Part shown: positions 1-11,385 of the stretch, piece after piece
Numbering within the stretch: the first letter of the stretch is position 1
Layout of the letters: every line of letters begins with the position of its first letter
UHGV virus genome: UHGV-0346646
Source of the DNA: a virus
Length of the DNA: 11,385 nucleotides
Direction: 5' to 3' (one strand)
Position numbers and translations under genes: made by a program
Notes under the pieces: generated by a model
The model's input: the letters and a program-made list of their open reading frames with translations, nothing else
Databases searched by the model: none
What the model was told of the DNA's origin: nothing

Positions 1-642
1 CGCTTCCACGGCGTTATTGATTACGCGCTTGCTGAAAGTGGCCCTGTGCTCTGAATAGATCGCCACCATTTCGCGGCTAAGTTCCATTGTGCTGACCGGA
101 CACCATACCCCGCCGCGCCATACGTGAACGATTTCACTTTCAGGATGTACGCAAACGCCATCAAAGCGATCGGCAAGCAGCTGCGCGCGCTCACTGTCCG
201 CCATCTGCGAAAGTTGCGCCTTTTGCTTTACCGGAAGCTCAATGACCAGACCATCAGAAAGATTCTGGCGCTCACGGGCCAGATATTCGCGCCAGTTCTC
301 CACCTTCTGACCGTGCATACCATCAGGGTAAAAATTTGCATCCTGTACGCCTGCCGCCGCCAGCTTCTGGCCAATCGCCTTTATCATTACTGGCGCAAGA
401 TATCCGGCCCTGAATATGCGCACGGATTTTCTGCCTTCCGGCACAATTTGCAGCTTATCCAGTTCTGATAACTGCTGCTCCCCAAGCCACACAGGAGGCT
501 CATTATCTCCGGCCATACGCGCATCATGTTCCTGCCATTGTTTCGCGTGTGCCCAGGCATCACTACCCGCAAAAATAATGACTTCTGTTCCTTTGTGTTT
601 TATGCCGCGTGACTGCTGTTTTACGTTCGGTGCCAGTTTCAT
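1..642 (-). CDS. hypothetical protein, 5-prime part only (gene continues past window start)
   Basis: ATG at 642-640 overlaps the stop of the upstream gene (ATGA). Frame stays open for all 214 codons down to position 1; checked by hand translation (MKLAPNVKQQSRGIKHKGTEVIIFAGSDAWAHAKQW...VWRGGVWCPVSTMELSREMVAIYSEHRATFSKRVINNAVEA). Absent from the ORF track because it has no stop inside the window. Function not recognised. Confidence 0.5.
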   Translation of the reverse strand, partial: MKLAPNVKQQSRGIKHKGTEVIIFAGSDAWAHAKQWQEHDARMAGDNEPPVWLGEQQLSELDKLQIVPEGRKSVRIFRAGYLAPVMIKAIGQKLAAAGVQDANFYPDGMHGQKVENWREYLARERQNLSDGLVIELPVKQKAQLSQMADSERAQLLADRFDGVCVHPESEIVHVWRGGVWCPVSTMELSREMVAIYSEHRATFSKRVINNAVEA

Positions 643-938
643 TTTTTACCCCTGAATCCTTTAATCATGGTTTTCATCTTCTGAATATTGGCGCGTGCTT
701 TCTCCCTGCTGGTGGGCACGTTACGCGGTACGGCCTGCACAAGAGAAAAATCACGGTCGAACTGATAAACAGGCATCACGCAATCATATTCGTAGCCTTC
801 ACGACGGTAGGTTACGCGCCGTTCCTCCACGCCCTTAATCATTACCGTGCCGCCGTACTTATCGCGGTAAATATCACCGCGCATGAATTTAGTGCGAGTT
901 TTGCCACTGGCAGTTAAGCCAGAATATTTAAGTTTCAT
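639..938 (-). CDS. hypothetical protein (99 aa)
   Basis: ATG at 938-936 with GGAGAA upstream; stop overlaps the start of the next minus-strand gene (ATGA at 639-642). Part of a translationally coupled minus-strand operon. No recognisable motif. Confidence 0.5.
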   Translation of the reverse strand: MKLKYSGLTASGKTRTKFMRGDIYRDKYGGTVMIKGVEERRVTYRREGYEYDCVMPVYQFDRDFSLVQAVPRNVPTSREKARANIQKMKTMIKGFRGKK

Positions 939-943
939 TATTT

Positions 944-1177
944 TTATTCTCCGGTGTGGGGCGCTTTATACTGGTCGTGTAATGTCTCTATTTCCTGCAA
1001 CTCATTTATTACAGGCTCAAGAAGCGTTATTAATGCCGTGACAATCCTTGATTTCTGTTTATCACGTTCATTATCTCCAAGCGTTTCAAGACATATGCGC
1101 AATATTTCCAACATATTTTCACTGTGAGAAAGTGCAAGAAATGCGCGGTCTATTGTTTCGTGGTAAATATCACGCAT
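944..1177 (-). CDS. hypothetical protein (77 aa)
   Basis: ATG at 1177-1175 preceded by GGGGA; stop at 944-946 lies 5 nt before the next gene start. Protein-like composition. Confidence 0.5.
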   Translation of the reverse strand: MRDIYHETIDRAFLALSHSENMLEILRICLETLGDNERDKQKSRIVTALITLLEPVINELQEIETLHDQYKAPHTGE

Positions 1178-1178
1178 A

Positions 1179-1613
1179 TTAATCCCCGTCCGTCGTTTTT
1201 CTTAAAATAACCTCTGTCACGAAATCAGCATAATCGGCGGCGATATTCAGTACATCAAGCCCCGTTGATTTATATTCTCTCGTGGAAAGTAAGAAAAAAT
1301 CCGCTCTAATAAGCTCTGGCATTGACGAAAGCGCATCAGCCGCATCATCAGGAACGCCGGAAAATTCCTGTTTCAGGGAATTAAAACGATCATCACGCAT
1401 AACCCCCCCATTTTCACAATCAGCAACAAGAATATTTTTAGCGTCATTCAGCGACCGCGTTGCGATGTATCGGATACATTCCAGGGCGAACTGTGTCCGG
1501 TCTTTCTGTTCTTCTCCCTGCGCAAGCTCTGCCGTGCATTCAATATCAATAAGCGCGTGCATCAGCGTAGTGAGTGCGGCGGCGGCTGCGTCCGGTGTGG
1601 TTTTATTGCACAT
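1179..1613 (-). CDS. hypothetical protein (144 aa from the ATG at 1613; track ORF starts further upstream at 1667)
   Basis: Internal ATG at 1613 is preceded by GGAGGGG at good spacing; the 1667 start has no Shine-Dalgarno. Overlaps the stop of the upstream gene by 11 nt. Function not recognised. Confidence 0.5.
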   Translation of the reverse strand: MCNKTTPDAAAAALTTLMHALIDIECTAELAQGEEQKDRTQFALECIRYIATRSLNDAKNILVADCENGGVMRDDRFNSLKQEFSGVPDDAADALSSMPELIRADFFLLSTREYKSTGLDVLNIAADYADFVTEVILRKTTDGD

Positions 1614-1833
1614 GTACCCCTCCGCATTTTTTTTCGTTAGAAATAAGCGTTCTTCTTTCCTGTTCATCGCTCAGGAATACGCAGACCTCACCGCTAAGGC
1701 GTTTAAGTAAGCCGATGATTGCCCCTGATTCGCTGTCGGTCATCATGCCAGGGTAATCCTCTGCCAGTGCGCAAATAACTTCGATTTGGTGGGCGCGTTC
1801 TGCTGCCTGTTGTAGTGTGATTTCCTGGCTCAT
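1603..1833 (-). CDS. hypothetical protein (76 aa)
   Basis: ATG at 1833-1831 overlaps the stop of the upstream gene (ATGA); GGGGG upstream. Confidence 0.45.
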   Translation of the reverse strand: MSQEITLQQAAERAHQIEVICALAEDYPGMMTDSESGAIIGLLKRLSGEVCVFLSDEQERRTLISNEKKCGGVHVQ

Positions 1834-2030
1834 AAGCCTACCCCCTGACGAATACGGGCAGCAAATACCATCACGCAGCCAGCCGGAGATTGCTGGCGTG
1901 CTTCCTGTTCGCTGGTGGCCTCAATGGTAATCACGCGCGGTTGTGCCGTGCTCAGGGCGATAAAACGCCAGATGTATTTATTCAGGTTGTGCGAGTCCCG
2001 CCCTTGCGGGTGTGTGGTATGATTTAACAT
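1830..2030 (-). CDS. small protein (66 aa), possibly Icd-like; family assignment is tentative
   Basis: ATG at 2030-2028 with GAGG 5-6 nt upstream; first gene of the minus-strand operon, downstream of a strong predicted promoter. It is also the C-terminal 66 codons of the long track ORF 1830..3116, which I consider a read-through artefact. Confidence 0.5.
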   Translation of the reverse strand: MLNHTTHPQGRDSHNLNKYIWRFIALSTAQPRVITIEATSEQEARQQSPAGCVMVFAARIRQGVGL

Positions 2031-2067
2031 AGCTACCTCGATACTTTCGCTATCGTTGGTGGTTAGA

Positions 2068-2100
2068 AGCCCTGCGAGTGGTAACGACACTTGCGGGGCT
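2068..2100. promoter_or_regulatory. 13-bp-arm inverted repeat (AGCCCTGCGAGTG / CACTTGCGGGGCT, 7-nt loop) in the leader of the minus-strand operon
   Basis: Read directly: the arms pair fully if two G-U wobbles are allowed. Sits between the predicted minus-strand promoter and the start at 2030. Confidence 0.4.
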
Positions 2101-2127
2101 TTGCATTTATGCACCTTGATAATCTCA

Positions 2128-2168
2128 AGGTGTAGCCCACTATATGCTTTAGGTGTGGCCCACGTCAA
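2128..2168 (-). promoter_or_regulatory. predicted sigma70 promoter for the minus-strand small-gene operon, overlapped by two direct repeats (AGGTGTAGCCCAC 2128-2140 and AGGTGTGGCCCAC 2151-2163)
   Basis: On the minus strand: -35 TTGACG (2168-2163), 18-bp spacer, -10 TATAGT (2144-2139). The direct repeats overlap the spacer and the start site, as operator sites would. Confidence 0.4.
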
Positions 2169-2170
2169 GG

Positions 2171-2199
2171 GTTTTATTTGTGCTTTTTCTGTGTATACT
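2171..2199 (+). promoter_or_regulatory. possible promoter for the ribbon-helix-helix gene
   Basis: -10 TATACT at 2194-2199; the -35 is weak (GTTTTA region). Divergent from the minus-strand promoter. Confidence 0.3.
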
Positions 2200-2229
2200 G
2201 TCCCCCACCAATCCAACAGAGGAATAGAA

Positions 2230-2409
2230 ATGGCAACGGGTACAACAAACGCAAAATCACAAGCTCTAAAGGCTCGTGTACCACACGAAATAGTAAACGC
2301 CATGGAATCAGTGAAAGAATCAGGCGAAAGCACATCACAATTCATCATTGCGTCAATGCAAGGCGAGATCAAACGCCGCCAGCGCCGCAAGGCCAAAGAG
2401 CAGGAGTAA
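2230..2409 (+). CDS. ribbon-helix-helix (Arc/MetJ/CopG-like) DNA-binding protein, 59 aa
   Basis: ATG at 2230 with AGAGGAA Shine-Dalgarno. Protein MATGTTNAKSQALKARVPHEIVNAMESVKESGESTSQFIIASMQGEIKRRQRRKAKEQE has the strand-helix-helix pattern typical of RHH repressors. Followed by tandem plus-strand terminators. Confidence 0.6.
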   Translation: MATGTTNAKSQALKARVPHEIVNAMESVKESGESTSQFIIASMQGEIKRRQRRKAKEQE

Positions 2410-2466
2410 CCATCACCAGCGCCGTGGTGTGAGTAACTACGGCGCATTGCTATGCAGGACAACACA

Positions 2467-2640
2467 ATGACCGATAAAGAATTGACCAAAACATTATCAC
2501 CGGCACGGAAAAGACGGCGCAGAAAGATAGAGCATGAATCAGAAAGATTCGCGCCATGTGCTTTTGCCCTTGAGCAATTCCTTAAAGAGTACAGGGAAAA
2601 GCGCTCATTGCAGGTATGGCAACGAACTGAACCTGACTGA
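2467..2640 (+). CDS. possible small basic protein (57 aa)
   Basis: ATG at 2467 with a weak AGGA upstream; Lys/Arg-rich (SPARKRRRRK). Lies between the RHH gene and the plus-strand terminators. Weakly supported. Confidence 0.3.
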   Translation: MTDKELTKTLSPARKRRRRKIEHESERFAPCAFALEQFLKEYREKRSLQVWQRTEPD

Positions 2641-2719
2641 TTGCATTGCCCACCAGCCGCAAATGTGGCATTGTTGGCAATGCTCATGCGTTGGGGATAA
2701 CGTGTAGCTTGTGTCGAGG

Positions 2720-2748
2720 GGCCACCGTAGCGGGTGGCCTTTGTTTTG
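2720..2748 (+). terminator. rho-independent terminator
   Basis: Stem GGCCACC / GGTGGCC with loop GTAGCG, followed by TTTGTTTTG. Confidence 0.6.
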
Positions 2749-2843
2749 CCCGTTATTCGGCAATTGTGGCGCTTCTCCACATGGTTGATATAATCCCACT
2801 GCTCAGATTCATTTTTTGCGCAGTAGGTTAATTGTTCACAAAG

Positions 2844-2877
2844 GCGCTCCGGCAACGGGGCGCTTTTTGTTTTTATT
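2844..2877 (+). terminator. rho-independent terminator (second of a tandem pair)
   Basis: Stem GCGCTCCG / CGGGGCGC (one G-U) with loop GCAA, followed by TTTTTGTTTTTATT. Confidence 0.6.
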
Positions 2878-2882
2878 AGTTT

Positions 2883-3116
2883 GTAGAAACCTGACTCAGA
2901 GATAATGCTCATATTCTGATTGCCGTCAGGGGTGTAAGTTAAATTTACTCCCTTTTTATCATCAAACATCTGCAACGCTCTGGCGTTAACAATATTGGTT
3001 TCACTCCCGCCAGTAAGGCCGGAAATAACCGGAATAATTTCGGCAAAATTTTGCAGATTCTGTTTTTCAGGACGAACGAAGCCCCGCCCTTGTTCGGGAG
3101 AATATCCAGTATTCAT
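2883..3116 (-). CDS. BRO-N / antirepressor-like N-terminal domain ORF, probably truncated or degenerate
   Basis: First ~78 codons of track ORF 1830..3116 (…DDKKGVNLTYTPDGNQNMSIISESGFYKLI) resemble the C-terminal half of a BRO-N domain from memory. The similarity ends where the plus-strand terminator at 2844-2877 is encoded; the remaining ~350 codons have Cys/Trp/Arg-rich antisense-like composition. True end unknown. Confidence 0.3.
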
Positions 3117-3168
3117 GGTTAGATCTCTGTATTAGTGGATGGGTGGCGGCTGTGTGCCGCCAGCCTGA

Positions 3169-3357
3169 TTAGTGAACTGCCTCGCAGCTGTCCTTCCATG
3201 CCAGAACTTCGGATAAAGACCAGCCAACGGAACGACCGCCCAGCTTACGCCGTGATGGGAATTGTCCGGCTTTTTCCAGGTGGTACCGACATGAGCGGCT
3301 CAGGCCTGTAAGTTGCTGACATTCTTTTTCACGTATAAAGCGATCTGTGCTTAACAC
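3169..3357 (-). CDS. alpA: AlpA-family (prophage CP4-57-type) transcriptional regulator / excisionase-like HTH protein
   Basis: GTG start at 3357-3355 preceded by GGGGGA. Protein (…QQLTGLSRSCRYHLEKAGQFPSRRKLGGRSVGWSLSEVLAWK) matches the AlpA pattern TG.SR.T.Y…G.FP…KLG.RSVGW..SE…W. Sits next to the integrase, as in P4-like islands. Confidence 0.85.
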   Translation of the reverse strand: MLSTDRFIREKECQQLTGLSRSCRYHLEKAGQFPSRRKLGGRSVGWSLSEVLAWKDSCEAVH

Positions 3358-3640
3358 AATTCCCCCTTTGTTGTTTCTTAAAGAGTCATTGGGTGGATTA
3401 TTGGGTTGGGTTGTGTCGGATTGTGTCAGGGTGTTTGTGGAATGGCAAACACTGGCGGCGGTCGTTTTACAGAAGCAGGGGAAATGAGAATAAAAACTCT
3501 TTTAATTCATTATGATGCAAAGGCATAAAATTTTACTTTTACGCCTTTTTTACATATTTTTAAGAGTGATTCGCCAGTGTATAAAAAAACAGTACACCTA
3601 TAAAAATCAAATGGTTATTACGATGGCTGATTTTTAACCC

Positions 3641-3700
3641 GTTGTTCCATTTTGTTCCTTGTTGTTCGTCGTTGTGTCTCGTTGTTTCACGTTGTCCGCA
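3641..3700. repeat. cluster of short direct repeats (CGTTGTT/CGTTGTC units) between the integrase and alpA
   Basis: Read directly: gttgttccattttgttccttgttgttcgtcgttgtgtctcgttgtttcacgttgtcc. Related TTGTGTC units occur at 3400-3440. Confidence 0.5.
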
Positions 3701-3722
3701 TCCTGAAAAATCGCAAAAAAAA

Positions 3723-4970
3723 TTATATTTCTCTGGCTATTGGCAATGTGGTTACGTTTTCATGTGTTCCCGCCAGTATCCCTAACCGCTCCGTCCACAT
3801 ATCCAGCGCGTCACGTTTCGCATCCAGATAACGGGAATGGTTATAGACTCGTTGCATCCCTGGCATCTGATGACCTGTAAGCTGCTCCACGACGTGAGGA
3901 TCCACGCCTAAATCGTTCAGCATCGTTGTAAAGGTGCGCCGGATGTCATGCAGTGACCAGTGAGGGTGTTTTAGCCTCCTGTGCGCTAATCTGCCGTACT
4001 GCGACACGCTTGTTTCCTGTTTCACTTCCCCCAGCAATAAGCCCGTGTGCCTGTTCTGCTCCACCAGCTGCGTGACGAACGGCAGTATTGCTTCCGGTAT
4101 GGGCCGGAATATTGCCACCTTCGTTTTGCTGTGTTCTTTCGGCACGGTCCAGAGCATTTCGGTAAAATCCCACTCGCTGATCTCCGATAACCTCAGTTCT
4201 ACCGTCCGGCATCCGAAAACAATCAGGAGGCGGATTAGTGCGACGTAGTAAGGGGAAAATATTTTTTTGTCCAGTGCCTGCAATAATTCGCCAAGTTCTT
4301 TGGTGCTTAAGACGCGCTCGCTTATATCCGGTTTTTTCCCAACGTCCGCCACACTCATATCATCAAGAACGTTGCTGATTGCATAGCGCCGCCTCCGGCA
4401 GAACTTAAGCGCCTGTTTGCACGTCTGTAGCAAGAATCCGGCAGTAACAGGCGTTCGCTTTGCCACCTGGTCAAAACAGGCCAGCCAGTGCCGTAGCTCG
4501 CATTTATCCAGCGGCATAGCACCAATGTGCTGTATTACGTGATTATTAAGGCGCTTTTTCAGGGCGGCATAATCCACGCGGTTTTCCTTTGCGTACGACT
4601 CAAGCCAGTAGGTGAGCGCATCGCCAACCGTTACCGGCTTTAACGCTTCCTGTACGGTGTAATTCATTTCATGACGTGGATTTTTCCCCTCTGCCAGCCA
4701 TGCGCGACACTGGGCGGCTTTTTCCCTGGCTGATTTCAGGCTCAGATCAGGATAATTTCCCAGCTTAATGCGTTCCGGTGGTGCCCCCCTTCCCGTTCCG
4801 GCCCTGTAAGTGAAATACCAGGTTAAAAGGCCACTGGTTGAATGCCTGACGCTCAGGTTTCCACCGTCATTAAGAAAGGCTGTTTTTTGGGCGGGTGTGC
4901 CGTTGATTTTCCTCAGCTGTGTATCGCTCAGTTTGTTAAGTGCTCTGCTCATAATTTTGATTCCGGTCAT
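3723..4970 (-). CDS. int: P4-type tyrosine integrase (site-specific recombinase, phage integrase family)
   Basis: Conserved C-terminal catalytic region HDIRRTF…GHQMPGMQRVYNHSRYLD (H-x-x-R and catalytic Tyr context) and an N-terminal arm-binding-type region like P4/CP4-57 integrases. Start is ambiguous: GTG 4973, ATG 4970 or ATG 4952 (MSRALNKLSDTQ…). Confidence 0.9.
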   Translation of the reverse strand: MTGIKIMSRALNKLSDTQLRKINGTPAQKTAFLNDGGNLSVRHSTSGLLTWYFTYRAGTGRGAPPERIKLGNYPDLSLKSAREKAAQCRAWLAEGKNPRHEMNYTVQEALKPVTVGDALTYWLESYAKENRVDYAALKKRLNNHVIQHIGAMPLDKCELRHWLACFDQVAKRTPVTAGFLLQTCKQALKFCRRRRYAISNVLDDMSVADVGKKPDISERVLSTKELGELLQALDKKIFSPYYVALIRLLIVFGCRTVELRLSEISEWDFTEMLWTVPKEHSKTKVAIFRPIPEAILPFVTQLVEQNRHTGLLLGEVKQETSVSQYGRLAHRRLKHPHWSLHDIRRTFTTMLNDLGVDPHVVEQLTGHQMPGMQRVYNHSRYLDAKRDALDMWTERLGILAGTHENVTTLPIAREI

Positions 4971-5009: not shown

Positions 5010-5206
5010 AAAGGGCTACAACGTGAAACAAGCTGGAACAAGGAAAATCACAAATCTGTTTATAATCAAAAACATAATGAACAACCTGAAACATTATGAA
5101 ACGGCAAAAAACACTAATTGATAAAATATGTCCTTTTATCACTACATCAAGGCAAGCCATTGATTTAATTAAATGATTTGCACTGCAAAAAGTGCTAAAA
5201 ATCGCA

Positions 5207-6836: not shown

Positions 6837-7250
6837 TCAGATGGTTTTCAGTATGCGATCGATGTCGCCGTCATCGCCCTGGTTTCTGCCATCGTATGCC
6901 ATGCCAGCTGATACGGCTTGCGGGCTGTGCATGTCCATAAAGTTTTCAAAGGCTGCGGTAAGCTCTGGTGCAACCTTTGGGCGCTCCTGCTCTATGGTCA
7001 TGTTCAGGATTTCACGAGCATTATCGACGCTAATACATGGCACGTTTGCCATTGCACGTAACAGCGGCTGATAGTCTTTATGCTCATGAAGCGCCATAAT
7101 CGCATCAGCGCGCGGCTTGTCCTGCTCTTCCAGTTTGTTTAGTTGATATACGGCCTCATAGGTTGATAAACCTCTGTCAGCCATTGCCCGCGCTTCGGCT
7201 TTAAATTTACTCGCCAGCGGTAGCGTCATGATGCTTTCATTCGTTGCCAT
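6837..7250 (-). CDS. hypothetical protein (137 aa), last gene of the capsid operon; possible scaffold-like or capsid accessory protein (speculative)
   Basis: ATG at 7250 with GGGGG 5 nt upstream; predicted helix-rich and acidic. Function not recognised. Confidence 0.55.
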   Translation of the reverse strand: MATNESIMTLPLASKFKAEARAMADRGLSTYEAVYQLNKLEEQDKPRADAIMALHEHKDYQPLLRAMANVPCISVDNAREILNMTIEQERPKVAPELTAAFENFMDMHSPQAVSAGMAYDGRNQGDDGDIDRILKTI

Positions 7251-8953: not shown

Positions 8954-9036
8954 AATGATGTTGAGTTGCGTTGCAAATTATGAAATGATTATCCCGATCA
9001 TGTGTGTCAGTGCACCAAAAAGCCTCATATGCAAAA

Positions 9037-9073
9037 GCCCGATAAGCCACCTCTGACCTTATCGGGCTTTTTT
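9037..9073. terminator. orphan terminator-like hairpin in the 415-bp intergenic region
   Basis: GCCCGATAAG - 11-nt loop - CTTATCGGGC followed by TTTTTT on the plus strand (AAAA precedes it). No obvious plus-strand gene upstream. Confidence 0.35.
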
Positions 9074-9248
9074 ATCTGCCTGCAAAGATGTCGAACGAAA
9101 ATTAACCACAACCATCATCTTTTTTGCATCAAAACAATTAAAAACAATAAATTACGCTCATGATGATGATGACGATAAAATCACAAAAATGCGCTTTTTT
9201 CCGCGCCTCCCGCCCCGTGTTCAGGCCCACCCCGCCAGGAGGACCCGT

Positions 9249-9271
9249 AAAAAAGCCGGATTGCTCCGGCT
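9249..9271 (-). terminator. rho-independent terminator after the SSB gene
   Basis: Minus-strand hairpin AGCCGGA-GCAA-TCCGGCT followed by TTTTTT. Sequence is near-identical to the terminator module at 6791-6840. Confidence 0.6.
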
Positions 9272-9286
9272 TCTGTCTCTCGTCGC

Positions 9287-9984: not shown

Positions 9985-10033
9985 ATTTATTTTTACCCCC
10001 TCGTTTAAAAAGTTTTGAGTTGTGCCTCCCCTT

Positions 10034-10259
10034 GTCTACCTTATCTACCTTAGTGGCCCTCATGCCAGTAATGGCGCGGCTTTCAGCGGGGTAGAGTGCT
10101 TTTATCCACTATCTACCCCGTGTCTACCTCCCTGTCTGATTCAGGTAAAATCAGGTAGAGAGGGTAGATAGTGGGTAGACAGTAAAAAAAGGCTATCTAC
10201 CTAACTTAATGCACTGAATTAAATGTATTTTTCTTTACTCAGGTAGACAGGGTAGACAG
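10034..10259. repeat. iteron cluster, putative replication origin (about 11 copies of GGTAGA(C/G/T)AG in both orientations)
   Basis: TCTACC at 10035, 10044, 10112, 10123 and 10196; GGTAGA at 10089, 10154, 10163, 10174, 10242 and 10251. Immediately downstream of the primase/helicase stop at 10273. Confidence 0.7.
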
Positions 10260-10272
10260 CAATTACAAAAAA

Positions 10273-11385
10273 TTATAAAAACGCGTCGCACTCGTCTGTT
10301 GTTATTGCGTTAGTCTGCGTTACCCCCTTAACTTTCCGCGTAATATATTCATGTCCGTAAACTTTTGCGGCAGGCTTCATAGCCTTTCCAAAGTCATTTA
10401 CGTTTAGCGGTTTGCTCCTGCCTGCGTATGCCATAAACGCCAGATAGACGCGGTAAAGGCTGTTCCTGGTCGTGTACTTCACTGAATCGCCACCGCCCCC
10501 CATCATCAGGCCGCGCGCTTCCTCCAGAAAATTCAGGAACTGGCAAAACTCAATAACCGGATCCGTCTGTTGCTTTATTGCCAGTGCTTCATCACCGTCA
10601 CGCTGTTCCAGTAGTAAAGCCCGTGCCTTCTCAGGGTCGGTAAAGTTCGCCAGCAATCGGCGGATAATGACAGGGATTTCAGCCGCGATCTTTTCCGGTA
10701 GCTCCCTGTCTTTTTCGGCCTCACTGACGATATTGTCGAAACGGAAAATCACGCGACGACGTGCCACACCTCCGGCCCGTTCGGTGAATATCATCGGGTT
10801 ATTGTTGGTCGCCAGCACCACCGCCCTGATTACAGCCGTGAAACGCTTTTCGTATTTCGGGTTAATTTCCACGGGGTCACCGCCCGTGATTTTCTTGATG
10901 CCCGTTCCTTCGCCTGTATATTTCGGCTGGTCAGCCAGGACGATAAGACGACTCCCGACAACCTGCGCACGTCCACCAGCATCATCAAGCGATGTCATTT
11001 CAGCGCTTACCGTGTTCTGTTTCCCTGCCAGAAGGCTGGCTATGTGCGTGAATGTACTTTTACCGCTCCCGCCGTCTCCGGTGGCCTCAATAAACATCTG
11101 CCAGTCGTACCGGTTCGCCATAATCATGTACAGCGCGGCACATATACGCATCATCTTGCGCGGGTCTTTTCCGGCTGCGTGCTCAAGCCATTTATGAAAG
11201 TTTGGCGCGTTATCGCGGATGTTCTCCCCTGGTGCTGGTGGCGTGTACTCAATGCCGTTGTGCGTGGTGATCCAGTTCTCCGGCGTGTGCGGGGAAAATC
11301 CCCCCGTTTTCAGGTCAAGCGCACCATTGGCGAACGGCAGCAAATCGCCGGACGGCTCGCCCATTGGTTCGGCAATAACTTTTAA
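10273..11385 (-). CDS. P4-family phage/plasmid primase C-terminal region with D5_N-like and SF3 helicase (P-loop) domains; 3-prime part only (start lies beyond window end)
   Basis: Walker A GDGGSGKST; upstream D5_N-like LLPFANGALDLKTGGFSPHTPENWIT; Walker B-like LIVLADQ. The frame is open upstream of the first in-window Met to position 11385, so the gene starts outside the window. Confidence 0.85.
   Translation of the reverse strand, partial: LKVIAEPMGEPSGDLLPFANGALDLKTGGFSPHTPENWITTHNGIEYTPPAPGENIRDNAPNFHKWLEHAAGKDPRKMMRICAALYMIMANRYDWQMFIEATGDGGSGKSTFTHIASLLAGKQNTVSAEMTSLDDAGGRAQVVGSRLIVLADQPKYTGEGTGIKKITGGDPVEINPKYEKRFTAVIRAVVLATNNNPMIFTERAGGVARRRVIFRFDNIVSEAEKDRELPEKIAAEIPVIIRRLLANFTDPEKARALLLEQRDGDEALAIKQQTDPVIEFCQFLNFLEEARGLMMGGGGDSVKYTTRNSLYRVYLAFMAYAGRSKPLNVNDFGKAMKPAAKVYGHEYITRKVKGVTQTNAITTDECDAFL

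What the first reader, a model, noticed from the sequence alone, without database searches (positions are those of the whole stretch)
1..2030. Translationally coupled operon of six small unknown genes in the accessory position after int/alpA
Six minus-strand ORFs (66, 76, 144, 77, 99 aa and a 214+ codon partial gene) have overlapping stop/start codons (ATGA at 1830-1833 and 639-642; 11-nt overlap at 1603-1613) and good Shine-Dalgarno sequences. They sit behind a strong promoter under apparent repressor control. I could assign none of them to a family by eye. In satellites, this position often carries helper-interference, defence or anti-defence cargo.
Basis: inference. Interest (0 to 1): 0.6.

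Follow-up and report, generated by a model that had tools for sequence, protein, structure and literature searches.

The report
Early replication operon of known PICI
The six back-to-back genes are real, but they are the conserved, repressor-controlled early operon that ends in the replication primase of a well-studied E. coli phage satellite (EcCICFT073 type), not a cargo slot for defence genes.

Summary
Six minus-strand ORFs at the stated coordinates are joined by ATGA, 11-nt, 1-nt and 5-nt junctions. All have strong Shine-Dalgarno sites, and the five small ones have dN/dS of 0.28-0.45.

The window is a circularly permuted copy of an EcCICFT073-type PICI: 99.9% identical to E. coli HM670 and 98.9% to CFT073. 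The "partial" sixth gene is the N-terminus of the 584-aa Pri-Rep primase-helicase, which continues at 11385→10273. Gene 1 is an Icd-like protein (P1 Icd family) and gene 5 is DUF4222 (basic SH3/Tudor-like barrel). Genes 2-4 are acidic helical mini-proteins of unknown function.

In 85 variant elements the order is always icd … p77 – DUF4222 – pri. Only about seven small families occur there, and no defence genes, so "accessory cargo position" is not supported.

The promoter/repressor idea is supported. Two 13-bp repeats overlap a TTGACG-18-TATAGT promoter and map one-to-one (13:13 types) to alleles of the divergent YlcI/YnfO gene, not to AlpA or Icd alleles. Sister elements carry C4 antisense RNA there instead.

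In passing: p144 is a fusion of two modules that a hypervariable poly-G tract (G7-G11) joins or splits.

The parts
2163..2168 (-). -35 hexamer TTGACG of the operon promoter (P_icd)
   Evidence: Consensus scan gives 10 of 12 matches, the best site in 1-3800. TTGAC/TTGAA is kept at this position in all 13 operator types.
2139..2144 (-). -10 hexamer TATAGT of P_icd (18-nt spacer). The inferred transcription start is near 2132.
   Evidence: The transcription start is inferred, not measured.
2151..2163 (-). Operator repeat O1, GTGGGCCACACCT, lying in the promoter spacer and abutting the -35
   Evidence: Only two copies of this 13-mer exist in the window. Its sequence type maps one-to-one to the YlcI allele across 50 loci.
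2128..2140 (-). Operator repeat O2, GTGGGCTACACCT, overlapping the -10 and the +1 position, 23 bp from O1
2230..2409 (+). Divergent gene for a YlcI/YnfO-family protein (59 aa, basic). It is the candidate repressor of P_icd.
   Evidence: NF041551, E=8e-19. RefSeq annotation. Operator and allele types map one-to-one, AMI 1.00. DNA binding and a ribbon-helix-helix fold are inferred and not verified.
2068..2100 (-). Conserved hairpin in the ~100-nt 5' leader (AGCCCCGCAAGUG…CACUCGCAGGGCU)
   Evidence: Fold z-score of -3.9 for the leader. Five of 8 consensus pairs show compensatory changes in 20 variants.
1830..2030 (-). Gene 1: Icd-like protein (66 aa, basic), first cistron of the operon
   Evidence: NF033153, 69.9 bits against a cut-off of 25. 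P1-type Icd from phage RCS47 hits the same model at 49.8 bits and likewise overlaps its downstream gene by ATGA. Present in 84 of 85 intervals.
1603..1833 (-). Gene 2: p76, an optional acidic helical mini-protein (phrog_1478)
   Evidence: Present in 37 of 131 loci. Homologues at ~40% identity lie in the early-left operons of Fels-1 and Klebsiella prophages.
1627..1634 (-). A8 tract just before the p76 stop / p144 start. A7 alleles fuse p76 to p144.
   Evidence: Natural fusion proteins P0001, P0028 and P0115 all share the junction …SNEKNAEGYMCNK. Unique contexts: A8 in 19, A7 in 2.
1179..1613 (-). Gene 3: p144 (phrog_2512), a fusion of an N module (about 1404-1613, phrog_5146) and a C module (1179-1400, phrog_24341)
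   Evidence: The two halves are separate genes in CFT073 and in many loci, sometimes with a further gene between them.
1403..1409 (-). Poly-G tract (G7) at the N/C module junction. The internal ATG at 1398-1400 starts the C module when the two are split.
   Evidence: G7 23, G8 33, G9 18, G10 3, G11 3 in 80 IMG/VR contigs. G7 and G10 give the fused form; G8, G9 and G11 give two coupled ORFs.
944..1177 (-). Gene 4: p77, a core acidic helical mini-protein (phrog_2196)
   Evidence: Present in 82 of 85 intervals, in two main alleles (~40% identical) plus a third variant. Only 8 representatives among 1.84 billion proteins.
639..938 (-). Gene 5: DUF4222 protein (99 aa, pI 10.2), always ATGA-coupled to pri
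1..642 (-). Gene 6, 5' part: N-terminal 214 codons of the Pri-Rep primase-helicase
   Evidence: phrog_864 DNA primase. The frame is contiguous with the other window end.
10273..11385 (-). Gene 6, 3' part: the rest of Pri-Rep (584 aa in all; D5_N, DUF5906 P-loop, Pox_D5)
   Evidence: 99-100% identical to the annotated 'DNA primase family protein' of CFT073 and HM670.
9985..10272 (-). Replication origin: iterons (C/A)T(G/A/C)TCTACC in both orientations flanking an AT-rich core
   Evidence: Read directly from the sequence. It matches the pri-rep-ori layout tested in EcCICFT073 (PMC6092414).
3169..3357 (-). alpA, the activator of the PICI cycle
   Evidence: PF05930, E=9e-18. Its role was shown experimentally in EcCICFT073 (PMC6092414).
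2641..3116 (-). Remnant of a BRO-N gene downstream of alpA. It forms part of a 428-codon open frame that runs into icd.
   Evidence: Weak Bro-N hit, E=0.009, below the Pfam cut-off. RefSeq annotates a truncated BRO-N pseudogene at this place in NZ_CP026723.

Best explanation
Window 1-2030, together with 10273-11385, is the early/replication operon of an EcCICFT073-type phage-inducible chromosomal island (PICI). The window presents the excised circle linearised inside the primase gene.

Transcription. One mRNA starts at a sigma-70 promoter (-35 at 2163-2168, -10 at 2139-2144). Two 13-bp direct repeats overlap this promoter. I infer that the small YlcI/YnfO-family protein encoded divergently at 2230-2409 binds them and keeps the operon silent in the integrated island. 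Sister elements carry a C4 antisense RNA at the same place instead.

Induction. In EcCICFT073 it has been shown that a helper phage turns on alpA, and that alpA is required for excision, replication and transfer. How AlpA overrides the repressor is unknown. One possibility is read-through from the alpA promoter across the ylcI cassette in the antisense direction.

Translation. After a ~100-nt leader with a conserved hairpin, ribosomes translate Icd-like, p76, p144, p77, DUF4222 and Pri-Rep in succession. They pass between cistrons by termination-reinitiation at overlapping or abutting stop/start codons. Pri-Rep then fires the iteron origin just downstream, which has been shown for EcCICFT073.

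Roles of the small proteins (all inferred).
- Icd-like is a homologue of P1 Icd. In P1 that protein blocks cell division, and its translation is needed for the next gene. That is established knowledge about P1 and was not tested here.
- DUF4222 is a strongly basic SH3/Tudor-like barrel, most likely a nucleic-acid- or Pri-binding accessory factor.
- p76, p144N, p144C and p77 are acidic helical mini-proteins. They probably act by binding host or helper proteins.
- p76, p144N and p144C probably work as one complex, because nature makes them either fused or separate.
For: Identity of the element:
- 99.9% identical to HM670 and 98.9% to CFT073.
- The window equals HM670 island coordinates 3739-15123 circularised, with 10 mismatches in 11,385.
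- RefSeq annotations agree.
- int, alpA, Pri-Rep, iteron ori, capsid E/D homologues and a 144-aa RppA 100% identical to the CFT073 protein are all present.

Operon:
- Junctions and SD strengths.
- No convincing terminator between the cistrons.
- Purifying selection on the small ORFs.

Core status:
- icd comes first and DUF4222-pri last in 85 unique intervals, whatever the int, alpA or pri allele.

Families:
- Icd-like, DUF4222, primase domains.

Regulation:
- Promoter and repeats found only at this site.
- 13 operator types match 13 YlcI types one-to-one (AMI 1.00). The association with Icd is 0.16 and with AlpA -0.06.
- C4 RNA (70-82 bits) lies upstream of icd in sister elements.
- The leader hairpin shows covariation.

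Literature:
- AlpA is an activator; alpA is required for induction and transfer; pri deletion cuts transfer about 100-fold, and AlpA-driven replication needs pri and int; pri-ori function was tested (PMC6092414).
- rppA and interference map downstream of ori (PMC6739421).
- A general zone model for Gram-negative PICIs, with immunity RNAs, exists (PMC10111431).
Against: - No transcript data were available. The transcription start and the single-mRNA claim are inferred.
- The operator/YlcI association could reflect tight physical linkage (under 200 bp) rather than binding. The equally close icd gene does recombine away, however.
- The YlcI fold could not be verified: no PDB hit by sequence or by profile.
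- The link between AlpA and this promoter is not established. The 2018 paper reports only an 'ORF3' fusion, and I could not map that ORF.
- The AF2 model of p76-p144 was unusable (pLDDT 41).
- The DUF4222 fold match is to a generic small barrel (Z no higher than 6.6).
- The functions of four of the proteins therefore remain guesses.
Confidence: 0.8

Rival explanations
1. One reading: the small genes are accessory cargo for helper interference, defence or anti-defence, placed after int/alpA and unrelated to replication.
For: The middle modules (p76, p144N, p144C, and a 70-127-aa 'modD') are optional and shuffled between elements. They are acidic helical mini-proteins, like many phage inhibitor proteins. 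p76 relatives sit among the small early-left genes of temperate phages. These genes were never tested for interference, because only genes after ori were cloned (PMC6739421).
Against: No PADLOC hit. Only about seven small families occur in 85 intervals, and no recognisable defence system. icd, p77 and DUF4222 are core and translationally tied to pri. The known interference gene (rppA) and the 'adaptable module' lie after ori. dN/dS of 0.28-0.45 shows no sign of diversifying selection.
Confidence: 0.2
2. One of the small proteins is a functional analogue of P4 epsilon (Ash), which derepresses or otherwise manipulates the helper prophage. It would occupy the same alpA-to-primase position as epsilon does in P4-like satellites.
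For: The positional analogy: in P4-like elements the order is alpA, epsilon, alpha (PMC10085698). The proteins are small and acidic.
Against: No Ash/epsilon family hit at E<0.1 in Pfam, NCBIfam or PHROGs. EcCICFT073 is induced by its helper rather than inducing it (PMC6092414).
Confidence: 0.08
3. The small ORFs matter mainly in cis. They would be a chain of coupling cistrons that meters Pri-Rep translation, as icd translation is needed for ant in P1, with little or no role for the proteins themselves.
For: Every junction is built for reinitiation. The same 11-nt junction (CATGTGCAATAA) recurs at different module boundaries. Modules can be lost, fused or split without loss of the design.
Against: Amino-acid sequences are under purifying selection. 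DUF4222 has a well-folded, highly conserved core. Minimal elements still keep icd, p77 and DUF4222.
Confidence: 0.1
4. The operon is driven mainly by read-through from the AlpA-activated alpA promoter. The ylcI cassette with its repeats would be an unrelated autoregulated insert (for example an antitoxin-like gene) that interrupted a BRO-N gene.
For: There is no strong minus-strand terminator between alpA and icd. A BRO-N remnant is truncated by the ylcI cassette. The 2018 ORF3 fusion was AlpA-dependent.
Against: The repeats overlap the -35/-10 of the minus-strand promoter that faces icd, not an obvious ylcI promoter. That promoter architecture is conserved in all 13 specificity types. Sister elements place an immunity RNA at exactly this spot.
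Confidence: 0.15

Closest known systems
EcCICFT073, the prototype Gram-negative PICI of E. coli CFT073 (Fillol-Salom et al. 2018, 2019)
   Same: It uses the same integration site (between phoQ and roxA) and the same gene order. It is 98.9% identical over 1-3400, and Icd, p76, p77, RppA and Pri-Rep are 99-100% identical.
   Different: In CFT073 p144 is split into two 73-aa ORFs (G8 instead of G7). CFT073 has a PerC-family gene and different ssb and upstream alleles. The window matches the HM670 variant.
Phage P1/P7 immI operon (c4 antisense RNA - icd - ant)
   Same: The first cistron is a homologue of Icd (same NCBIfam model). It overlaps the next gene by ATGA and sits at the head of an immunity-controlled operon. 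Sister PICIs even keep a C4 RNA upstream.
   Different: The window has no C4 RNA and uses a protein/operator cassette instead. The downstream genes are mini-proteins and a primase rather than an antirepressor. BLASTP finds no pairwise alignment, so similarity is seen only at profile level.
Satellite P4 left (early) operon: promoter, immunity RNA CI, epsilon, alpha primase
   Same: The logic is the same: an immunity-controlled early operon of small genes ending in a D5/P4-type primase-helicase, followed by ori, and preceded by an AlpA/Vis homologue.
   Different: There is no Ash/epsilon, Sid, Delta or Psu homologue. Fillol-Salom 2018 report only distant homology between PICI and P4 for Int, AlpA and Pri.
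Phage P22 immI (Mnt/Arc ribbon-helix-helix repressors at the ant promoter)
   Same: A small repressor gene is transcribed divergently from the promoter it controls, with paired operators overlapping the core promoter. This is functional analogy only.
   Different: No sequence relationship was shown. The ribbon-helix-helix fold of YlcI is my reading of the sequence pattern and was not confirmed.

Membership tests
Gram-negative PICI (EcCICFT073 type) | Unidirectional int - alpA - pri-rep followed by an iteron ori | tested here: met
   Integrase domains, Phage_AlpA, D5_N/DUF5906/Pox_D5, and iterons at 9985-10272
Gram-negative PICI (EcCICFT073 type) | Size of about 10-15 kb, flanked by att repeats at a PICI-specific chromosomal site | tested here: met
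   11,385 bp. A 10-bp direct repeat, AAATATGTCC, lies at both ends in HM670 between phoQ and roxA, the same site as in CFT073.
Gram-negative PICI (EcCICFT073 type) | No tail, lysis or terminase genes; packaging redirected by Rpp | tested here: met
   Among virion genes the window has only capsid E and decoration D homologues, plus one ORF (6837-7250) that weakly resembles the end of a head protease. The 144-aa RppA is 100% identical to the CFT073 protein (PMC6739421).
Gram-negative PICI (EcCICFT073 type) | Induction and high-frequency transfer by a helper phage | not testable with these tools
   Shown for the 98.9%-identical EcCICFT073 with lambda and phi80 (PMC6092414), not for this copy.
Icd-like protein (NF033153) | Score above the curated cut-off of the NCBIfam model that P1-type Icd also matches | tested here: met
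   69.9 bits against a cut-off of 25. RCS47 (P1-like) Icd scores 49.8 bits.
Icd-like protein (NF033153) | Inhibits host cell division | not testable with these tools
   The name rests on P1 experiments. No data exist for PICI homologues.
P1 immI-type operon | C4 antisense RNA gene upstream of icd | tested here: not met
   No C4 hit in the window at E<=1. It is present in sister elements L007, L009, L011, L022 and L034.
DUF4222 (PF13973) | Pfam gathering score reached | tested here: met
   85 bits against a cut-off of 27
P4/D5-type primase-helicase | D5_N, a P-loop SF3 helicase core and a Pox_D5 C-terminal domain in one polypeptide | tested here: met
   D5_N E=1.5e-14, DUF5906 E=5e-10, Pox_D5 E=8e-5 on the rejoined 584-aa protein. 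A Walker A motif, GDGGSGKST, is present.
Known anti-phage defence systems (PADLOC-DB) | Any component model matched | tested here: not met
   No family at E<=0.01 for the five small proteins or for five other window proteins
P4 epsilon / Ash helper derepressor | Sequence membership in the Ash family | tested here: not met
   No such hit at E<=0.1 in Pfam, NCBIfam or PHROGs for any of the six proteins
YlcI/YnfO family (candidate repressor) | NCBIfam NF041551 cut-off reached | tested here: met
   67.4 bits against a cut-off of 30
Ribbon-helix-helix repressors (Arc/Mnt/CopG type) | RHH fold, with the N-terminal strand reading the operator | tested here: inconclusive
The most variable residues (11-15) lie just before an invariant R-x-P, and the protein types match operator types one-to-one. 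This is suggestive only.

The most novel reading that the evidence does not exclude
The YlcI/YnfO-family protein and its paired 13-bp operators are the missing 'master repressor' (immunity) module of E. coli PICIs. It exists in at least 13 specificities and is interchangeable with C4-RNA immunity. In addition, the acidic mini-proteins p76, p144N and p144C form a complex directed at a helper or host protein, and hypermutable A8 and G7-G11 tracts toggle that complex between fused and split forms.
Probability: 0.3. Interest if true: 0.6.

Novelty: already known. Interest (0 to 1): 0.35.

Why it matters
The finding is not new cargo. It is the conserved early operon of the best-studied Gram-negative phage satellite, already annotated in RefSeq, and its last gene has been characterised experimentally.

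Its value lies in what remains open. Four or five proteins made together with the primase have never been tested. The 2018 question of whether Gram-negative PICIs have a global repressor becomes directly testable, because the YlcI/operator pairs identified here give a concrete candidate with 13 natural specificity variants.

The homopolymer-controlled fusing and splitting of p144 is unusual for E. coli. It also offers natural 'Rosetta-stone' evidence that these mini-proteins act together.

Tried and rejected
- Rfam scan of the window at E<=1 found nothing relevant, so there is no C4/CI-type immunity RNA in this element.
- PADLOC search of the small proteins gave no hits.
- PDB sequence searches for p144, DUF4222 and YlcI (single sequence and profile) found nothing significant.
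- AF2 of the natural p76-p144 fusion gave pLDDT 41. It is all-helical with no usable fold, so I ran no fold search on it.
- I rejected the idea that p76, p144N, p144C and p77 are paralogues. All hhalign probabilities are below 4%.
- I rejected Icd or AlpA as the operator-specific binder, because their alleles assort independently of operator type.
- A deep phmmer search with p77 found only 8 representatives and no distant relatives.
- tblastn of DUF4222 and p77 against 50,697 phage records gave no match, and Icd matched only one 16.5-kb record.
- The genome-contig scan with Pri-Rep returned only three loci.
- Literature searches for DUF4222, YlcI/YnfO and Icd-like in PICIs found no functional study.
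- I could not establish which ORF is 'ORF3' in the 2018 AlpA reporter experiment.
Full report
**1. Observation**

The junctions are ATGA at 1830-1833, an 11-nt overlap at 1603-1613, a 1-nt gap, a 5-nt gap, and ATGA at 639-642. All six starts have SD:anti-SD energies between -6.2 and -10.7 kcal/mol. The median over all 401 ATGs of the window is -1.7 and the 10th percentile is -5.3. PGAP annotates exactly these CDS in RefSeq. Across related elements the five small ORFs have median dN/dS of 0.28-0.45.

**2. What the window is**

Positions 1-3400 are 99.9% identical to E. coli HM670 and 98.9% identical to CFT073 at the locus between phoQ and roxA. That locus is EcCICFT073, the prototype Gram-negative phage-inducible chromosomal island (PMC6092414).

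The window equals the HM670 island (L002 3739-15123, 11,385 bp) joined head to tail and rotated, with 10 mismatches. The 10-bp direct repeat found at both chromosomal ends occurs once in the window, at 5124-5133. The 'partial' sixth gene is therefore an artefact of linearisation. Read across the ends it gives a 584-aa protein with D5_N, DUF5906 (P-loop) and Pox_D5 domains. This is the Pri-Rep primase-helicase.

The iteron origin follows at 9985-10272. Pri and ori function were shown for EcCICFT073.

**3. The six genes**

- Gene 1 is an Icd-like protein (NF033153, 69.9 bits). Icd of a P1-like phage hits the same model and also overlaps its downstream gene (ant) by ATGA. BLASTP finds no pairwise alignment between the two.
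- Genes 2-4 (p76, p144, p77) belong to PHROGs of unknown function. They are acidic (pI 4.4-5.0). p76 and p144 come out all-helical in a low-confidence model; I read p77 as helical from its sequence only. They have no Pfam, NCBIfam, PADLOC or PDB relatives.
- p77 has only 8 cluster representatives among 1.84 billion proteins.
- p76 has relatives at ~40% identity among the small early-left genes next to the repressor of Fels-1 and of Klebsiella prophages.

**4. Is this an accessory position?**

I fetched 130 related loci and found 85 distinct icd-to-pri intervals. Icd is always first, and DUF4222 is always last and coupled to pri. p77 or a ~40%-identical allele is nearly always present. This holds whichever integrase family, AlpA type or pri allele the element carries.

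The shortest form (~725 nt) is icd - p77-like - DUF4222 - pri. The middle part is modular: p76, the two halves of p144, and a 70-127-aa 'modD' come and go. In all, only about seven small families plus two rare ones occur there, and no defence system.

In EcCICFT073 the interference gene rppA lies after ori, and only post-ori genes were screened for interference. The engineered 'adaptable module' is c1498-c1501, also after ori. Mageeney et al. place this region between a dynamic 'Bro zone' with immunity RNAs and the replication zone.

The block is therefore the core early/replication operon. It has a variable middle but is not a cargo slot.

**5. Regulation**

The best promoter-like site in 1-3800 is TTGACG-18-TATAGT at 2168-2139. 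Two copies of GTGGGC(C/T)ACACCT, 23 bp apart, overlap its spacer and its -10/+1 region. The 13-mer occurs nowhere else in the window.

Across 50 loci that have an adjacent divergent ylcI gene, there are 13 operator types and 13 YlcI types, and they match one-to-one (AMI 1.00). The association with Icd alleles is 0.16 and with AlpA alleles -0.06. The variable residues of YlcI cluster just before an invariant R-x-P. This pattern fits a ribbon-helix-helix recognition strand, but I could not verify the fold. Physical linkage is a caveat. Even so, recombination clearly separates the operator from the equally close icd gene.

Sister elements with the other icd allele class carry an Rfam C4 antisense RNA, sometimes with isrK as well, directly upstream of icd. 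This is the P1 immI / P4 CI arrangement already noted for some PICIs. The window itself has none.

The ~100-nt leader contains a hairpin (2068-2100) with compensatory changes in 5 of 8 consensus pairs.

AlpA is an experimentally shown activator of the island cycle. How it overrides the repressor is unknown. Downstream of alpA lies a BRO-N remnant that the ylcI cassette interrupts, and there is no strong minus-strand terminator. Read-through antisense to ylcI is therefore possible.

**6. Mechanism, shown versus inferred**

Shown here:
- the gene order, the junctions and the SD sites;
- conservation of the block across variants;
- family membership of genes 1, 5 and 6;
- the one-to-one match between operator and YlcI types.

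Shown in the literature for the near-identical EcCICFT073:
- dependence of the cycle on AlpA;
- pri-ori replication;
- rppA-mediated interference, mapped elsewhere in the island.

Inferred:
- a single mRNA starting near 2132;
- repression by YlcI;
- ribosome hand-over between cistrons;
- roles for Icd (division block or coupling leader), DUF4222 (nucleic-acid or Pri partner) and the acidic mini-proteins (binders of host or helper proteins).

**7. Noticed on the way**

p144 is a fusion of two modules that are separate genes in CFT073 and many other elements. The junction is a poly-G tract: G7 23, G8 33, G9 18, G10 3 and G11 3 in 80 IMG/VR contigs. G7 and G10 fuse the modules. G8, G9 and G11 give two coupled ORFs, with the C module starting at ATG 1398-1400. 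Six pairs of contigs with identical 400-nt flanks differ in run length. The tract is therefore either hypermutable or error-prone to sequence.

An A8 tract at 1627-1634 likewise separates p76 from p144. A7 alleles encode p76-p144 fusion proteins seen on dozens of contigs. Both observations suggest that p76, p144N and p144C act together.

**8. Verdict**

The operon and promoter/repressor reading is supported. The 'unknown accessory cargo' reading is not supported. The feature is already known as part of EcCICFT073, so overall interest is modest. There are two testable leads: YlcI as the candidate PICI repressor, and the homopolymer-toggled mini-protein modules.

Noticed in passing
window 1 / 11385 junction; 5124-5133: The window is the excised island written as a circle and cut inside the primase gene. 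It equals HM670 island coordinates L002 3739-15123 with 10 mismatches. The 10-bp repeat AAATATGTCC that flanks the island in the chromosome occurs once here, so it is probably the attP core.
   Followed up: yes
window 1403-1409 (minus strand), internal ATG at 1398-1400: A poly-G tract at the junction of the two halves of p144 varies from G7 to G11 among related elements (23/33/18/3/3 of 80 contigs). It switches between one fused 144-aa protein and two translationally coupled ORFs. Contigs with identical flanks differ in run length. I could not separate hypermutability from sequencing error.
   Followed up: partly
window 1627-1634 (minus strand): An A8 tract lies just upstream of the p76 stop / p144 start overlap. 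Natural A7 alleles encode p76-p144 fusion proteins (217-224 aa, junction SNEKNAEGYMCNK). Transcriptional slippage on A8 could make the same fusion at a low level.
   Followed up: partly
window 1603-1613, and the equivalent junctions in loci L014, L070 and L071: The same overlap sequence (…CATGTGCAATAA, protein tails …HVQ* / MCN…) recurs at several different module boundaries: icd|p144N, p76|p144N and modD|p144N. Modules may be inserted or lost by recombination at this shared joint.
   Followed up: partly
window 2068-2100 (minus strand): A GC-rich hairpin in the 5' leader of icd is conserved in structure, with compensatory changes, across otherwise different promoter and operator types. It is followed by the conserved sequence UCUAACCA(C/A)CAACG. 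Its function is unknown (attenuator, processing site or antisense target).
   Followed up: partly
loci L007 2962-3050, L009 113-200, L011 3104-3191, L022 3299-3386, L034 3497-3584: Sister elements carry Rfam C4 antisense RNA (70-82 bits) directly upstream of their icd-like gene, and three of them also carry isrK. These take the place of the YlcI/operator cassette.
   Followed up: yes
window 1830-3116 (minus strand): A 428-codon open frame runs from just after alpA, antisense through h57 and ylcI and the promoter, into icd. Its upstream part (2641-3116) is a BRO-N remnant. RefSeq annotates a truncated BRO-N pseudogene there in NZ_CP026723. Why the rest of the frame stays open is unexplained.
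   Followed up: partly
window 2467-2640 (+) and terminator 2840-2867 (+): A 57-aa very basic protein (phrog_21027, no other family) follows ylcI and is followed by a strong plus-strand intrinsic terminator. It also occurs in elements without ylcI. Its function is unknown.
   Followed up: no
window 268-642 (minus strand; Pri-Rep residues 1-125): The first ~125 residues of Pri-Rep are conserved (45-66% identity) across elements whose remaining primase-helicase body is unrelated (tblastn coverage only 21-25%). The N-terminal domain therefore travels with the p77-DUF4222 block.
   Followed up: partly
window 6837-7250 (minus strand): A 137-aa protein next to the decoration-protein gene (phrog_1999) weakly resembles the C-terminal end of head maturation proteases (phrog_53, E=1.7e-10). 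It may be a scaffold- or protease-derived fragment.
   Followed up: no
locus L001 7676-7924 (CFT073) versus window ~9000-9280: CFT073 carries a PerC-family regulator gene between the capsid module and ssb. This window and HM670 lack it. The ssb and the small upstream gene are different alleles (72% and 65% identity).
   Followed up: no
loci L003 and L025 (p144 region): These copies have G8 plus a second 1-nt deletion about 150 nt downstream, which truncates the C module to ~50 aa. Some lineages are apparently losing this gene.
   Followed up: no
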